NCBI GenBank assembly: GCA_035221665.1
Contig: CM069164.1
Location: 13,268,001-13,332,000, forward strand
DNA length: 64,000 nucleotides
Direction of reading: 5' to 3'
From: Okamejei kenojei
Taxonomy: Eukaryota
Shown: positions 53,340-62,300 of the stretch, in pieces
How positions within the stretch are numbered: position 1 is the stretch's first letter
Layout: each line of letters opens with the position of its first letter
Made by a program: the position numbers

Positions 53340-56300
53340 GATGAGGGTCAAGAACTCCTTTAGAAGAAAATAAAATGTGACTGGTATGGAAGAAGAACTT
53401 GCAATCACGATTGGCCCAAAACTCACTAAAGTGTGGATGCAGGTGTACAAAGGTGAGGCCTCTGCTGAAGGCAGATTGTTGAGTGTCAAAAGCGATAGGT
53501 TTGTGTAGCACTTATGGAAACAGAATGGTAAAATATATATAACAGGAGAGGGACAATCACCAAGGTGCACAGCTGGCAACCTCATGCTCCAAGGTATAGG
53601 TTCTACAGGAGTAATAGAGATAGCGGAAAAAGAGATGAGAGTGTTGGTTGAAAATGTCACCAGTAGTCGGAGATTACATTACTGATGGTTGAACCAGTAG
53701 TCGGAGATTACATTACTGATGGTTGATCCAGTGAGGCTATATATGTAAAGCAGAGATAAAAAAGGGGATGATCACCTTGTTGGGAGTGTACTATAGGCCC
53801 CCAAACAGCCAATGGGAATTAGAAGAGCAAATATGCCAGGAGGTTGCTGGTAGCTTCAAAAGTAATAACATTGTCATAGAGGATTTTAACTTTCCCAATA
53901 TAGCCTGGGAGTGTCCTGGTGTCAAGGGCTTAGATAGGGTGGAATTTGTCAAATGTGTTTGGGAAAGCTTTCTAAGGGATTTGTGGAGGGGCCCCACAGT
54001 GAAAAGGGTAAAGTTTGATCTGCTGCTAGGAAATTGGAACGGGCAAGTGACTGAAGTATCCATGGGCGAGTGTTCTGGGACTAGCGACCACTTTCAATTA
54101 ACTTTAGAGGGCGACCCCACAAGTTAAAACTTTAAATTTGAGCAAGGTCACCTTTGACAGTGCAATCGACTTTAGCAAGTTACTAAGTTGTTTGCATGCA
54201 AAGGATGTCTGGAAAGTGGGATACTTTTAACAGTGTGATGACAAGAGTTCAGGGTATGCGTGTTAGAGTGAAGGGCAAGTCAGCTGAGAGTAAGGAAGCT
54301 TGGATGTAGAGAGAAGATGAGGCACTGGTCAGTCAACGAGGTATGAGACTGGTATCGAAAGCTTGGATCAAGTGCATCACTGGAGGACAGGTGTCGGAGG
54401 TTATGGGGAGAATGGGGTTAATTCTACTATTTGAGGAAATCAGGAAGGTGAAAAGGGAGCAGTGATAGCATTGGCAGATAATATTAAAGAAAATCCAATG
54501 AGATTTTACTTCGGAGTCACGTGAGTGACTACGTGAAGAACCCGCCTGGCGCTGGCAAACGGCATTACGTCGACGCTGACGGCAGAAGCAGGAGCTGCAC
54601 AGACAGCTCCTCGACAGCGGTAGGTTCGGAACCGGCAGGTAAGTGCTGTTGAAAAAATTTTTTAGGACTAGAAAACTCCGTGCCTGGTGGAAACCAGGAT
54701 TTTAAAGGTTTTAAAAACTAACTAAAAGTTTAAATTAAACAGATATACTCTGTTAAAATAACGGAGTTTTAAAAAGAACGTCCCCAGGGAATACCCAGCG
54801 ATCCGGAAGAGATAATTACGGCCGGTTCCGATACTGGTACCGTTAAAATACGGTAGAAAGGTTTAAATGCTCCACAATTTTGGCAGGATATTTTAAAAGT
54901 CAGAAAGACTGTATTTTTAAAAAGTTAATAAAATTCGCGATATGGAGAAAGTACTCCATAATATAAAAAGAGACTAGGGTCACAGTACCCAAACAGTTCC
55001 CCAAAAAAGACCCTAGGGGCTTGAATGTACTAAAGACCAGGGTCACAGTACCCAAACAGTAAAAAAGACCCTGAGGGGCTTGAATACAAAATATGGCTAT
55101 GTGCCAAATTGAAAAATAAAAACTCTGACCCTGGATAGGGTGGAGGAAGTCTCTTTGGTATAATTCCAAGTGGATCAGGGCTGCAAAAGACAGACCCTGC
55201 AAGTGGTGATGTGAATTATGAATGCACACCACAATAAAATTAAAATAAAAGTGAGGCCAGGTGTGCCTGAGATAGCAAAAGTTTTGCTATATCTAAAGGA
55301 AGTGGTGAGGCTATGGAAAAACCTAGCTGCCTACATTAATTATATGGTATCTCACCAACTTCAAGAATACGATAAAACTTTATGTTTTATTTAAATATCA
55401 ATGGTTAATCCATTTATAAATATCCATGTCTCAAATATATGAGATATAAGAAATACAATTTCAAAGTTTCAAAATGGTGCAAATATGTAATACTTGCAAT
55501 ATAAAATAAATTGCCATTAGTTGTGGAGGTTAATAGGAAGAAATATATATAATTTACCAAATCTGCATCATAGGGTTGCAGATTAATACAAATCAGGATC
55601 TCCTGATTATTATAGAATACCTGCCTTATGATAAATCAAAGATATTAATTACAAAAGAAACAGACCACTGATCTTTAAACTTTGGGAAGGAAAACTATGA
55701 TCCAATAAAAATTTTGATTATGGATCAAAACAAAGACAAAGATCTTTTATCTTACGGTGAAAAAACTATGATCCAATGAAAAATTTGATGATGGATCAAA
55801 ATAAAGGCAGAAGTGGTATTATCCAAACATAGCCTTATCTTAACCTATATAATTGGGGAAAAGAAGGCTTGATGTACGTTGAAGAGGTGCAAACATCTGG
55901 TTACAAAATAAGTCATGAAATCTCCAATTATGGGGGATTACAGGTGTATTATGATGGTTAAAACTTAATATAACTAAGGAGGATTGGTTCACCTGTATAA
56001 GGGGAAAACTGATTTCAGGTTTGCACTCAAAAGTAAATTTTAAAAAGAAGGGGAACGTACATGTATATTATAAAATTACCTTAGTGTAAAGATTCATGGT
56101 ATTAAAACCATACAATAATATCATTATTTACACTTTCACAGTGTAAGAAAATAGAAACATCTAGAACATGGAAAACTGTTGTGATTAACAAAGTGTTAAT
56201 CAATATTACAGGTGCTTGAAATTAATTAAAGTGGGTCAAGCTGTGCAAGTTAAAACTTGTCCAAACAATCAATCAGTTCAAGTTGTTAAACTGAACACTG

Positions 56301-59300: not shown

Positions 59301-62300
59301 CCCTCATCGTAACTCCTCATAAAATAACGATCAAACTTCGAACTGGTAAGTTCTCGTTTAATCTTACTATTTTATTTACAATAAGGGAAAGAGAATTGGG
59401 CAGTCATCTCTGGAGCTGCAGGAGATGGGCAAGATTCTGTTTTTACCGTGGATAAAGACATGAGGACTGGGGAAGTTTGCACAGTTAATGCAAATGTCTT
59501 GAGAACCTTGAGTAATAGCCAACGGGATAAATAATTGGTGTCATGGAAGGAAACGGATGGTGATGATGGAAGGTTGTTTTTCCAGACTGGAGGTTTGTGA
59601 TAATGGAGATGAGAAAGTAGAGGGCTTGATTAGTAAGTTTGCAGATTACATTAAATTAGGCAGTACAGAGAGCAAAAATTGATATCAAAAATTGCAGCAG
59701 GATGTTGATCAAGTGAGCTGAAGAATGATTGAAAGGATTTAATGCAGATATATGCACGGCTTTGCAATTTGGGAAGTCAAATGAGGGCAGGAACTACACA
59801 GTGAATGGCAGAGCCCCAGGGAGTGTTCTAGAGCAGAGATCTAGGATTGCAGGTAAATAGATGTTTGAAAGAGACACCACGGGTAGATCGGGTGATCAAG
59901 AAGGTTTTCAACGCTGGTCATCAGCCAGGGTATTGAATGAATTAATAAGTTTATTGGCTAAGTAAGGAATTTGCCTTGGAGCTATGTCCACAAGTGACAA
60001 CAAGACATAGTGACAGTTACGAATGATACATAAAACATTATACATTAATAATAAAACATTGATTAAACATGTGAATTAAATAAAATACCAGAGCAAAAGG
60101 GGGCTGCAGATTTTTGGTTATTGAGTAGAGCTACTACTTGTGGAAAAAAGCTTGAGTAAAATTGAGTAAAGAATTTGGAATGTTATATTAGTTGTACAAG
60201 ATGTGGTTGAGCGCTTCACATTTGGGGTACTGTGTTTAGTTTTGGTCACCCTGCTATAGGAAGGATGTTGTCAAGGTGGTAAGAATGGAGAGAAGATTTA
60301 CAAGGTTGTTCCAAGGACTTGAGGGCCTGAGCAACAGGGAGAGGTTGGACAGGTGAGGGCTATATTCCATAAAGTGCATGAGGATGAGGGGTGTCCTTGG
60401 AGGTAGGTAAGATCATGTAGAGAATAGATAGGACAAATGCAGAGTATTTTATCCAGGGTAGGGGAATCAAGAACAACCGGTTTGCAGTGAGAGTGGAAAC
60501 ATGTAATAGGAACTGTTCTGGGATGCCTGTCTAAATGTGCATGGACCAGGTCAAGACAAGAGAAAACAGGGTGATGAATGACTAATCAGCACCTTTTGAA
60601 GCAGGTTCAAAAGACAAAACCAGTAATGCACAACTCGGGTGAAGAGAGCATGCCCTGAACTCTGGTCATCACGTCTCCGGTAGGGAAGCTCCGATTCGGG
60701 GCTTACCTTGCCTGTACATCTGGCCGCCCGCAGCGGCAACTGCGGAGGTTTATGTCCCGACCATGGGGAAAAATGGAGGAGGACTGACTGAATTTGTGCC
60801 TTCCACCACAGTGGTGGATGTTTTGTGTTCAATTTTACTTAATTGTGTATTGTGTGTTCTTTTTTTTTAATTGTACTGCTGCTGGCAAGTTCATTTCACT
60901 GCACTTCATTGTGTATGCGACGAATAAATCTGACTATTGATTATAATGGGATGACTCATCTGTAAATGAGTGTAAAATGTACTTGGAAACGGCAGAGAAT
61001 AGCCATTCTTAGGAAACAGACAGGATGTGGTTGGATTGGACATTAGGGCTACTTTATGTTTGGGTTATGTATCTGGAGCCATTGAAGCACCATCTGGCTG
61101 AAAATGTTATACACTGAACCATATGAGGCTACTTGGGCACTTGGCCTTGCCAAATGAGGTCATTGCCATATCAATGCCAGTTATCCTATTGAGTATTTCA
61201 GAAGTTTACACTTTTATTAGGTTGGAATATATTTTGATTTTTGGGCGGGTTGTTTCCACCTGGTGAGCCGATTAGATGCTTATATTGTGATTGGTTAAAG
61301 GCTTGTTGCACCTCCAGCTCTGATCTCAGCCTTTCTCCGGCCCCAAATTGTTGGACTGAGATTTGAAGTTGATATTGGAATCGTCTTTCTTGATCAGCAG
61401 AAATAAACCAACTTGTGTGCAGTGGTACTGTGCTCCTTGTGGTGAGGGGCTGGGATTATATTCATTGTCACACCCAAGGAAGGAATTGTTGAAGTAGCTC
61501 CTGCAAATATAATATAGGAATCACTACTGAACGTGCATTTCCGTGGCACCTTTCATGACTTGCCAAAATGTAGCTAAAGCAAAATTCTTTAATCTTGAAA
61601 CTGGGAATGTGCAACAAATGATCTGTGATTGGCAAGCTCCTGTTAACGGCAAAGAAGTAATGACCTGCTTATCTGTTCTGGTGATTGGGGGATAAATATT
61701 GATGAGCCGGCACTAGCAGGCCTTCGTTTTGACTCTCCCGAAGATCTGGGCCACGCTCGCCAAGACCTGCAATGGACCCCAACTTTACTTAATTCTATAT
61801 CATCAACAAACGGCCCCTCGCCTACCTGGACTCTGCTAAGGATCACAAGCTTGCCCGCCTCCAGACCGGTCCTTCCACCGACACCCCTCGACTCGACTGC
61901 CCACTGTCCACCGCTGGGCCACGCCGCCTGCCCGACCACCATGGGGCCGAGACCCAGGAGGCCATCATCGCCATGAAGACTAGCACAATCATCCACCGTT
62001 TCTCCGACACTCGTCGCCGATCCCAGACCTGGACCACCGAATCTGCAGCCGCTGCCCTTCACCACCTCCCCGGGGCCACCAAAGCCGTCTCCGGCTGACC
62101 ACTGACGCTTTGTTCGCTAACCCGTTTTTAAAAATTTAAGCAGTCTGAAGAAGGATCTCGACCCGAAGCATCACCCATTCCTTCTATCCAGAGATGCTGC
62201 CTGTCCCGCTGAGTTGCTCAAGCATTTTGTGTCTGTTTTCAGTGACAACCAGCATCTGCAGTTCCTTCCTGGGCCTTTCATTGATATCCTCCTGAGAATA

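What the first reader, a model, noticed from the sequence alone, without database searches (positions are those of the whole stretch)
54503..59374. Full-length DIRS retroelement with flawless replication termini around a destroyed coding interior
Seen: 36/36 ITR match and 37/37 and 82/82 ICR-to-terminus matches, all CpG-rich. The 4.4-kb interior has no ORF above about 110 codons, and its RT (YLDY), RNase H (NNTTAVAYVN), methyltransferase and recombinase (RVQTL, ISRWL) motifs are barely legible. Known: DIRS1 elements use the ICR to regenerate both ends and circularise. Inference: decay in place would have hit termini and CpGs equally. So this looks like a recently inserted, full-size non-autonomous DIRS lineage that kept replicating in trans long after losing its genes. 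I do not know of this being described in cartilaginous fishes.
Basis: partly seen in the sequence, partly recalled or inferred. Interest (0 to 1): 0.78.

Follow-up and report, generated by a model that had tools for sequence, protein, structure and literature searches.

The report
Gene-dead DIRS retroelement, freshly inserted
A 4.9-kb jumping-gene copy of the DIRS type has perfect end structures but no working genes, so it probably jumped recently with enzymes borrowed from a relative; this is a tidy case of a kind already known in other organisms.

Summary
Window 54503-59374 has the full terminal architecture of a DIRS1-like tyrosine-recombinase retrotransposon. The inverted-repeat core matches 36/36. 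The left end matches the internal complementary region (ICR) 37/37, and the ICR matches the right end 82/82. The two ICR halves overlap on 6 nt, and that 6-mer sits at both junctions.

CpG observed/expected is about 1.35 in the left 440 nt and about 1.2 in the right 679 nt. It is 0.23 in the 3.75-kb interior. The interior has near-random stop density in all six frames, and no profile or sequence search recognised any protein domain in it.

Under the published replication model, all three perfect matches are rebuilt at each retrotransposition, so they date the insertion as recent. Internal duplications have diverged 8-12%, against 0 of 155 mismatches in the terminal pairs (p = 2e-5). The interior was therefore dead before the last jump, which implies enzymes supplied in trans.

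Whether this is a long-lived, multi-copy non-autonomous lineage could not be tested, because no eukaryotic genome collection was available. DIRS elements are already reported in chondrichthyans, and non-autonomous relatives are known (TOC1, SIRE). Interest is moderate.

The parts
54503..54565 (+). Left terminus (lTer). The divergent inverted repeat is 54503-54529 (27 nt). The conserved inverted repeat is 54530-54565 (36 nt). It begins with the 6-mer ATTTTA (54503-54508).
54566..54942 (+). Unique 5' non-coding zone with undecayed CpG. It has 20 CpG against 14.7 expected (o/e 1.36), and TG+CA o/e is 0.63.
   Evidence: Poisson P = 6e-10 for 20 or more CpG if this zone were as depleted as the interior.
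54943..58695 (+). Decayed interior, given as one part; the bounds are CpG change points and are approximate. There is no reading frame and no recognisable gag, pol or recombinase gene. GC is 32%, CpG o/e is 0.23 and TG+CA o/e is 1.28. It holds three internal tandem duplications and three simple-repeat arrays.
58696..59027 (+). Unique 3' zone upstream of the ICR. CpG o/e is 1.08 and TG+CA o/e is 1.26, so it is intermediate between termini and interior.
   Evidence: P = 8e-5
59028..59064 (+). Left ICR (lICR), the exact reverse complement of 54503-54539.
   Evidence: 37/37
59059..59140 (+). Right ICR (rICR), the exact reverse complement of 59293-59374. It overlaps lICR on 59059-59064 (6 nt), which is the circular junction.
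   Evidence: (82/82)
59141..59262 (+). Spacer between the ICR and the right inverted repeat. CpG is 2 against 4.4 expected (o/e 0.45).
59263..59325 (+). Right inverted repeat. The conserved part is 59263-59298 and the divergent part is 59299-59325.
59326..59374 (+). Right extension (rE), 49 nt. It is complementary to rICR only and ends with the 6-mer ATTTTA (59369-59374).
   Evidence: (alignment A1)
53768..54127 (+). Neighbour: a decayed endonuclease-like ORF of a non-LTR retrotransposon, about 375 nt to the left of the insertion and on the same strand.
   Evidence: Exo_endo_phos_2, E = 1.3e-4, 22.3 bits. This is below the 27.4-bit cut-off, but profile positions 5-114 of 117 are covered.

Best explanation
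This is a recently integrated copy of a DIRS1-like (tyrosine-recombinase) retrotransposon. It keeps every cis-acting terminal structure of the family but encodes nothing.

Proposed mechanism:
1. An RNA was transcribed from a source copy that was already coding-dead.
2. That RNA was reverse-transcribed by enzymes from an autonomous relative.
3. The left repeat was rebuilt from the right one, and both outer ends were rebuilt on the ICR. This is why the matches are flawless.
4. The ends were closed into a circle at the 6-nt junction.
5. A recombinase supplied in trans crossed that junction with an identical 6-mer in a decayed non-LTR element, leaving the 6-mer at both borders.

The roughly 1.1 kb of terminal non-coding sequence has kept its CpGs along the lineage, while the 3.75-kb body lost three quarters of them and all reading frames. 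Two causes are possible: copies with damaged ends leave no descendants, or the ends are unmethylated promoters in source copies.

Shown: the structures, their exact identity, the absence of coding capacity, and the two-regime CpG pattern. Inferred: transcription, supply of enzymes in trans, the circle, the crossover, and the existence of a lineage.
For: - Architecture. The inverted repeats, the lICR and rICR lying side by side, the junction and the right extension align exactly as in the published scheme (PMC3266345 passages). Sizes lie within the published ranges: ICR sum 113 nt (range 85-130), rE 49 nt (9-75), divergent repeat 27 nt (9-36), element 4872 bp (DIRS-1 is 4814 bp, PMC7192593).
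- Recency. There are 0 mismatches in 155 paired terminal positions, which include 12 CpG pairs.
- Interior older than the insertion. Two internal duplications differ at 16 of 165 aligned positions and carry 8 gaps. Fisher p = 2.3e-5 against the termini.
- No coding capacity. Stops number 99, 86 and 66 in the plus frames and 71, 71 and 77 in the minus frames, out of 1253 codons each. Shuffles give 106.8 +/- 10.8. 0 of 32 open stretches matched any retroelement family in Pfam.
- Two regimes. CpG o/e is 1.31-1.36, then 0.23, then about 1.2. Maximum-likelihood change points fall at 54953 and 58753, with log-likelihood -98.8 against -121.5 for one regime.
- Action in trans is documented for the DIRS-1 reverse transcriptase, and the ICR is essential for retrotransposition (PMC7192593 passages).
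Against: - Only one copy could be examined. No second copy of the termini or the interior exists in the window. No collection at hand holds this genome, so copy number, shared lesions and an autonomous partner are all untested.
- No search recognised the interior as DIRS-derived.
- The complete lack of CpG loss across 440 nt on the left is more uniform than selection on scattered cis-elements would predict. This fits a recombinant origin at least as well.
- A truncated DIRS-1 construct did not complete a detectable full cycle in the one published test (PMC7192593 passage). Full mobilisation in trans of a gene-less DIRS element is therefore not demonstrated in any species.
Confidence: 0.55

Rival explanations
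1. Recombinant mosaic. Fresh termini from an active autonomous element became joined to the body of an old dead copy. This could happen by template switching between two RNAs during reverse transcription, or by recombination between copies. On this reading the copy is young but does not represent a long-lived non-autonomous lineage.
For: The change in CpG regime is abrupt (change points 54953 and 58753). The left 440 nt show no CpG decay at all (o/e 1.31-1.36; TG+CA o/e 0.63 in the unique part), directly next to sequence at o/e 0.23.
Against: A switch needs homology at both switch points between a pristine and a heavily decayed sequence. The right side is not uniformly fresh: the spacer 59141-59262 has o/e 0.45, and 58696-59027 has TG+CA o/e 1.26. 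That looks more like patchy constraint. There is no direct evidence either way.
Confidence: 0.2
2. The interior was never the coding region of this family. It is a non-coding filler, captured or long since unrelated, carried between functional ends, as in the large non-coding derivatives of LTR elements. The motif-like strings would then be chance.
For: 0 of 32 open stretches hit a retroelement family. 0 of 5 stretches hit a polymerase, RNase H or recombinase among solved structures. An exhaustive phmmer of the most legible 62-aa stretch found 0 proteins at E <= 0.001 among 1,835,955,588. Stop density is close to that of shuffles.
Against: The element has the length of a full DIRS1-like element. 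The plus strand is purine-rich (A 37%, G 19% against T 31%, C 13%); my recollection is that sense strands of retroelements often are.
Confidence: 0.12
3. An old autonomous copy decayed where it sits. Its termini stayed identical through local gene conversion, and their CpGs survived because the ends are unmethylated.
For: In the elephant shark, transposable elements and gene bodies are hypermethylated, and methylation at transcription start sites relates inversely to expression (PMC5437953, abstract). Promoter-like ends could therefore escape CpG decay.
Against: There are 0 of 155 mismatches in the terminal pairs, against 16 of 165 in internal duplications (p = 2.3e-5). The arms are only 36, 37 and 82 nt long, and two of the pairs lie 4.5-4.7 kb apart; that such arms are poor substrates for conversion is an inference. 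Lack of methylation does not stop non-CpG substitutions.
Confidence: 0.07
4. Assembly artefact: reads of a young element and an old one were collapsed into one chimeric model.
For: Repeats are prone to collapse. The window holds two N runs (17680-17864 and 41425-41692).
Against: The N runs lie 12 kb or more away. The geometry of ends, ICR and junction is self-consistent across the whole 4.9 kb.
Confidence: 0.03

Closest known systems
DIRS1-like retrotransposons of animals as annotated by Piednoel et al. 2011 (for example the Anolis and Aplysia elements in their Table 3) and the Xenopus DIRS-like families (PMC3266345, PMC9210276; passages read)
   Same: The layout lTer, lICR, rICR, rITR, rE is the same. 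The inverted repeat has a divergent and a conserved part. A short string is shared by both repeats and both ICRs (TACGTG here). There is a right extension only, as in most animal elements. The ends are T-rich, and part sizes fall within the published ranges.
   Different: No gag, pol or recombinase reading frame is left. The inverted repeat is short (63 nt; published range 66-316, and about 120 in Xenopus). The two ICR halves overlap on 6 nt, where 3 nt is described.
DIRS-1 of Dictyostelium discoideum (PMC7192593, passages read)
   Same: The ICR is exactly complementary to both outer ends (33 + 55 nt there, 37 + 82 nt here). The length is similar (4814 against 4872 bp). The replication model rebuilds the ends from the right repeat and the ICR.
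   Different: DIRS-1 is autonomous, has repeats of about 300 nt, and inserts preferentially into other DIRS-1 copies. This copy lies in a decayed non-LTR element.
TOC1 of Chlamydomonas reinhardtii, described as the non-autonomous version of the tyrosine-recombinase retroelement TOC3 (PMC5613634 and PMC9940879, passages read)
   Same: It is a non-coding element of the DIRS order that transposes, so it must rely on a partner's proteins.
   Different: It is a green alga element. I did not see its terminal structure in the passages read, nor its relation to the partner's interior. Its activity is documented by new insertions, which is not the case here.
[quoted passage not shown]
   Same: It is a derivative of a tyrosine-recombinase retroelement that keeps the 5' and 3' ends of its parent.
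   Different: SIRE is a short deletion derivative of about 435 bp and has split direct repeats. The element here is full-size and has inverted repeats plus an ICR.
LARD elements, the large non-coding derivatives of LTR retrotransposons (named as non-autonomous in PMC8498967; their properties are recalled, not read)
   Same: Full-size non-coding body between functional terminal repeats.
   Different: They have direct LTRs and use an integrase, not inverted repeats with an ICR and a tyrosine recombinase.

Membership tests
DIRS1-like retrotransposon (terminal structure as defined in PMC3266345) | Inverted terminal repeats with a conserved, strictly complementary part and a divergent part | tested here: met
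   Conserved part 36/36 (54530-54565 against 59263-59298). The divergent 27 nt are partly complementary. Overall 89% over 64 columns.
DIRS1-like retrotransposon (terminal structure as defined in PMC3266345) | Two adjacent internal complementary regions near the 3' end, complementary to the start of the left terminus and the end of the right terminus, with theoretical 100% identity | tested here: met
   37/37 and 82/82. The ICR pair spans 59028-59140, 113 nt in all.
DIRS1-like retrotransposon (terminal structure as defined in PMC3266345) | The two ICRs overlap on a short circular junction that is complementary to the terminal nucleotides | tested here: met
   The overlap is 59059-59064, 6 nt rather than the described 3 nt. 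Its complement is the first 6 nt and the last 6 nt of the element.
DIRS1-like retrotransposon (terminal structure as defined in PMC3266345) | A right extension complementary only to the right ICR | tested here: met
   59326-59374, 49 nt (alignment A1). Published range 9-75 nt.
DIRS1-like retrotransposon (terminal structure as defined in PMC3266345) | No target-site duplication; the junction motif flanks the element, one copy coming from the target | tested here: inconclusive
   The same 6-mer sits at 54503-54508 and 59369-59374, and the identity stops on both sides. No empty site is available: the window holds no second copy of the flanks.
DIRS1-like retrotransposon (terminal structure as defined in PMC3266345) | Genes for gag, pol (RT, RNase H, methyltransferase) and a tyrosine recombinase | tested here: not met
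   The longest plus-strand ORF is 84 aa. 0 of 32 open stretches hit such a Pfam family. 0 of 5 hit a related solved structure. 0 hits in the exhaustive protein search. The copy is therefore a member by its ends only, and is not autonomous.
DIRS1-like retrotransposon (terminal structure as defined in PMC3266345) | Dispersed in several copies in the genome | not testable with these tools
   No collection with this genome is at hand. There is one copy in the window, 0 of 10 ORFs in the protein collection, and 0 matches in prokaryotic genomes.
Ngaro, PAT-like or VIPER elements (other tyrosine-recombinase retroelements) | Split direct repeats at the ends instead of inverted repeats plus an ICR (PMC7192593 and PMC6681497 passages) | tested here: not met
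   No direct repeat joins the two ends. The only terminal repeats are inverted.
Non-autonomous retroelement family (TOC1-like or LARD-like) | Intact cis-acting ends together with no coding capacity | tested here: met
Non-autonomous retroelement family (TOC1-like or LARD-like) | Several copies sharing the same non-coding interior and the same lesions | not testable with these tools
   See the row on dispersed copies above.
Non-autonomous retroelement family (TOC1-like or LARD-like) | An autonomous partner with matching ends in the same genome | not testable with these tools
   None in the window. The rest of the genome was not available.

The most novel reading that the evidence does not exclude
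A long-lived, full-length, gene-less DIRS1-like lineage in a vertebrate, the counterpart of TOC1 or of plant LARDs. In it, about 1.1 kb of terminal sequence has stayed CpG-intact through many rounds of borrowed replication, or through promoter-type lack of methylation in source copies. Over the same period the 3.75-kb body drifted until no gene is recognisable. The sharp borders at about 54950 and 58700-58750 would then map, by natural experiment, the cis-acting sequence a vertebrate DIRS element needs. The 6-nt overlap would point to a 6-bp crossover region for its recombinase.
Probability: 0.35. Interest if true: 0.55.

Novelty: new member of a known kind. Interest (0 to 1): 0.4.

Why it matters
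DIRS elements are the least understood order of retrotransposons. Their replication model has been tested experimentally only in Dictyostelium, where full mobilisation of a gene-less element in trans was not seen (PMC7192593).

A young copy with flawless ends and no genes is natural evidence that all DIRS proteins can act in trans in a vertebrate. It also marks out which parts of the element matter in cis. If a family of such copies exists, it would show how far an interior can decay while a parasite of a parasite keeps spreading. It would also give an internal clock (terminal pairs against interior) for dating DIRS activity in slowly evolving genomes.

If this is a lone copy or a recombinant, it is an ordinary dead element with a curious history.

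Tried and rejected
I then scanned 27 plus-strand and 5 minus-strand open stretches of 25 aa or more. 0 of 32 hit a retroelement family, and 4 of 32 gave weak unrelated hits (E 0.01-0.064, all under their cut-offs).

2. I tried to obtain DIRS proteins as comparators and failed each time.
- Word-indexed search with the 62-aa stretch 56901-57086, longer proteins: 3 candidates, none scored.
- Exhaustive phmmer of the same stretch: 0 at E <= 0.001.
- Protein atlas: no usable hit.
- Solved structures with 5 stretches: 0 relevant; 2 of 5 gave weak unrelated hits.
Without a comparator I could not count frameshifts or measure divergence of the interior.

3. I looked for sister copies through predicted proteins. 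0 of 10 interior ORFs are in the collection by exact look-up. The 110-aa minus-strand ORF found nothing among proteins of similar length (60 candidates, none scored).

4. I looked for host-element relatives to define the empty site. The endonuclease-like ORF found nothing (43 candidates). 0 of 13 flank stretches hit a reverse transcriptase in Pfam. The window holds no second copy of the flanks.

5. Rfam over the whole window: 0 matches.

6. The terminal string in prokaryotic genomes: 0 matches (done for completeness).

7. Repeat-induced point mutation was rejected. TG+CA is in excess in the interior (o/e 1.28), whereas I recall that process depleting those dinucleotides.

8. Deaminase editing of exposed single-stranded cDNA, with the ends protected in duplex, was rejected. 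The unique 377-nt 5' zone is not in a duplex yet is pristine. The interior is not depleted in G relative to C (G 19%, C 13%).

9. A nested foreign insertion forming the interior was rejected. No inverted or direct repeats mark the change points, and nothing else in the window resembles the interior.

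
Full report
**1. What is there**

- 54503-54539 is the exact reverse complement of 59028-59064 (37/37).
- 59059-59140 is the exact reverse complement of 59293-59374 (82/82). The match is 84/85 if carried three bases into the flank.
- 54530-54565 is the exact reverse complement of 59263-59298 (36/36).
- Each terminal string occurs only at its two expected places in the 64-kb window, against 0.00 matches expected from 100 shuffles.
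- The minus strand of 59020-59380 folds into the 82-bp stem at -114.2 kcal/mol. Shuffles average -31.7 (z = -19.8; 0 of 100 do as well).

**2. Anatomy of the ends**

I aligned the left terminus, the reverse complement of the right terminus, the reverse complement of the left ICR, and the right ICR (alignment A1). The alignment reproduces the scheme that Piednoel et al. drew for DIRS1-like elements (PMC3266345, passages read).
- A right extension of 49 nt (59326-59374) pairs only with the right ICR.
- A divergent inverted repeat of 27 nt (54503-54529 and 59299-59325) follows its own ICR on each side.
- The short string TACGTG is shared by all four sequences at the border.
- A conserved inverted repeat of 36 nt follows.
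- Taken together, the inverted repeat is 63 nt at 89% identity.

Sizes fall within the published ranges, with one exception.

| Part | This element | Published range |
|---|---|---|
| ICR pair | 113 nt | 85-130 nt |
| Right extension | 49 nt | 9-75 nt |
| Divergent repeat | 27 nt | 9-36 nt |
| Inverted repeat | 63 nt | 66-316 nt |

There is no left extension, as in the animal elements described there.

The two ICR halves overlap on six bases (59059-59064), where the paper describes three. The complement of that 6-mer, ATTTTA, is both the first six and the last six bases of the element, and identity stops on either side.

This is what a crossover between a circle junction and an identical target 6-mer would leave. 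That tyrosine recombinases exchange strands across an overlap of six to eight bases is my recollection, not a result.

No direct repeats join the ends, so this is not a Ngaro, PAT or VIPER type of element.

**3. The interior**
- The longest ORF overlapping the element is 110 aa on the minus strand. The longest on the plus strand is 84 aa.
- Between 54943 and 58702 the three plus frames hold 99, 86 and 66 stops and the three minus frames 71, 71 and 77, out of 1253 codons each. Mononucleotide shuffles give 106.8 +/- 10.8. No frame and no strand keeps a coding signal.
- I cannot assign breaks to individual genes or count frameshifts, because no comparator protein could be obtained.
- What can be counted is the stops above, three internal tandem duplications (units of about 63, 71 and 215 nt) and three simple-repeat arrays.
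Nothing else supports their assignment.

The searches run on the interior all came back empty.

| Search | Result |
|---|---|
| Pfam, 32 open stretches | 0 matched a retroelement family |
| Solved structures, 5 stretches | 0 matched a polymerase, RNase H or recombinase |
| Exhaustive phmmer, most legible 62-aa stretch, against 1,835,955,588 proteins | 0 at E <= 0.001 |
| Word-indexed protein search | nothing |
| Protein atlas | nothing |

'Destroyed' is therefore confirmed. 'Derived from DIRS genes' remains an eye reading, supported only by the element's full length and the order of the strings.

**4. Two regimes in one element**

| Region | CpG observed | CpG expected or o/e | TG+CA o/e |
|---|---|---|---|
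| 54503-54942 | 26 | o/e 1.31 (repeat), 1.36 (unique 377 nt) | 0.63 in the unique part |
| 54943-58695 | 22 | 95.5 expected; o/e 0.23 | 1.28 |
| 58696-59374 | 28 | about 1.2 overall | varies, see below |

- A two-change-point model places the borders at 54953 and 58753. Its log-likelihood is -98.8 against -121.5 for a single regime.
- If the unique terminal stretches were as depleted as the interior, 20 or more CpG on the left has P = 6e-10, and 10 or more in 58696-59027 has P = 8e-5.
- The interior shows the classical trace of deamination of methylated CpG: a CpG deficit with a TG+CA excess.
- The right side is patchy. The ICR and right terminus are at o/e 1.7-1.9. The spacer 59141-59262 is at 0.45 (2 against 4.4 expected). 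58696-59027 is at 1.08 with TG+CA at 1.26.
- The window as a whole is at 0.38 and the flanks at 0.32 and 0.46.
- In the elephant shark, transposable elements are hypermethylated (PMC5437953, abstract).

**5. Timing**

Malicki et al. retell the model of Cappello et al. (PMC7192593, passages). The transcript lacks both outer ends. Most of the left repeat is restored from the right repeat, and the outer ends are restored on the ICR. All three perfect matches are therefore renewed at every retrotransposition and start to diverge only after integration.
- There are 0 mismatches in 155 paired positions, 12 CpG pairs among them.
- By the rule of three, this caps pairwise divergence near 2%. The cap is lower if the CpGs are methylated. 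This is an inference.
- Two of the internal duplications differ at 16 of 165 aligned positions and carry 8 gaps. The third differs at 1 of 51 with 2 gaps.
- Fisher's test of 0/155 against 16/165 gives p = 2.3e-5. Against all three duplications (17/216) it gives p = 1.5e-4.

The interior was therefore already duplicated, diverged and closed in all frames before the last retrotransposition, so that event needed proteins from elsewhere.

The flawless matches speak for recency, not for selection. Selection, or lack of methylation in source copies, is argued only by the intact CpGs of the unique terminal sequence.

**6. Surroundings**
- About 375 nt to the left, on the same strand, lies a 119-aa ORF (53768-54127). 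It matches the endonuclease domain of non-LTR retrotransposons weakly but over nearly the whole profile (Exo_endo_phos_2, E = 1.3e-4, 22.3 bits against a 27.4-bit cut-off, positions 5-114 of 117).
- Strong positive GC skew runs on both sides of the insertion.
- No reverse transcriptase was detected in 13 flank stretches. That the host element continues on the right is therefore likely but not shown.
- The window has no second copy of the insertion site, so the empty site is unknown.
- The N runs (17680-17864 and 41425-41692) were left alone.
- Nothing in the window was taken for human, and no spliced model was needed.

**7. What it most likely is, and the rivals**
- **Best reading (0.55).** This is a young copy of an already gene-less DIRS1-like element, made with a relative's enzymes. 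The ends have been kept intact along the lineage because only copies with working ends leave descendants, or because they are unmethylated promoters in source copies.
- **Recombinant mosaic (0.2).** Fresh ends became joined to an old body. The abrupt left border and the total absence of CpG loss over 440 nt fit this at least as well. The patchy right side fits it less well.
- **Filler interior (0.12).** The interior was never DIRS coding sequence. The element would still be non-autonomous.
- **Decay in place (0.07).** This needs gene conversion and unmethylated ends. It is contradicted by 0/155 against 16/165, and by the shortness of the arms and the distance between two of the pairs.
- **Assembly chimera (0.03).**
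- Repeat-induced point mutation and deaminase editing of single-stranded cDNA were considered and rejected (see Tried and rejected).

**8. Against the literature**
- DIRS elements are listed among the superfamilies present in chondrichthyans (PMC4350176, passage).
- Many Xenopus DIRS-like families are degenerate in their repeats or ORFs (PMC9210276, passages). I did not see its supplementary tables.
- Non-autonomous tyrosine-recombinase retroelements are described. TOC1 is called the non-autonomous version of TOC3 in Chlamydomonas (PMC5613634 and PMC9940879, passages). SIRE is a truncated VIPER (PMC6681497, passage).
[quoted passage not shown] A truncated construct did not give a detectable full cycle (PMC7192593, passages).
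- Full-text searches for non-autonomous DIRS elements returned no animal case. The library omits most subscription journals and Repbase, so this is weak evidence of absence.

**9. What stayed unchecked**
- Copy number, shared lesions, an autonomous partner and insertion polymorphism.
- Predicted-protein routes to sister copies found nothing.
- The host organism was not verified.

**10. Verdict**

This is a new member of a known kind. Interest is 0.4.

Noticed in passing
window 37921-38469, minus strand: A 183-aa ORF matches the GIY-YIG catalytic domain (E = 9.4e-5, 23.1 bits, just over the 22.6-bit cut-off). As I recall, this domain in an animal genome is typical of Penelope-like retroelements.
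   Followed up: no
window 53768-54127, plus strand: An endonuclease-like ORF of a decayed non-LTR retrotransposon lies just left of the insertion. The DIRS copy appears to have landed inside this older element, in the same orientation.
   Followed up: partly
window 54503-54508 and 59369-59374: The same 6-mer sits at both borders and once in the ICR overlap, where the literature describes a 3-nt junction. This may mean a 6-bp crossover region, or three extra bases matching by chance (1 in 64).
   Followed up: partly
window 54510-54530 (and its complement in 59037-59057): The left end carries a short palindromic hairpin of its own, which the fold of the ICR region also shows.
   Followed up: no
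window 54636-54644: A 9-nt string in the CpG-intact 5' zone looks like the canonical vertebrate 5' splice-site consensus. The consensus is recalled, and this was read by eye only.
   Followed up: no
window 53100-54502 (left flank): The flank holds an exact 34-nt tandem duplication (family D5). A minus-strand ORF there has a run of eleven prolines, which reflects a simple repeat.
   Followed up: no
window 60227-60474, with 8057-8307 and 22890-22968: These are copies of another dispersed repeat (73% over 253 nt and 72% over 79 nt).
   Followed up: no
window 54943-58695: The interior is below the window in GC (32% against 40%) and is purine-rich on the plus strand (A 37%, G 19%, T 31%, C 13%). 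It has therefore not simply drifted to the local background composition.
   Followed up: partly
window 17680-17864 and 41425-41692: Two runs of N. They were left as they are.
   Followed up: no
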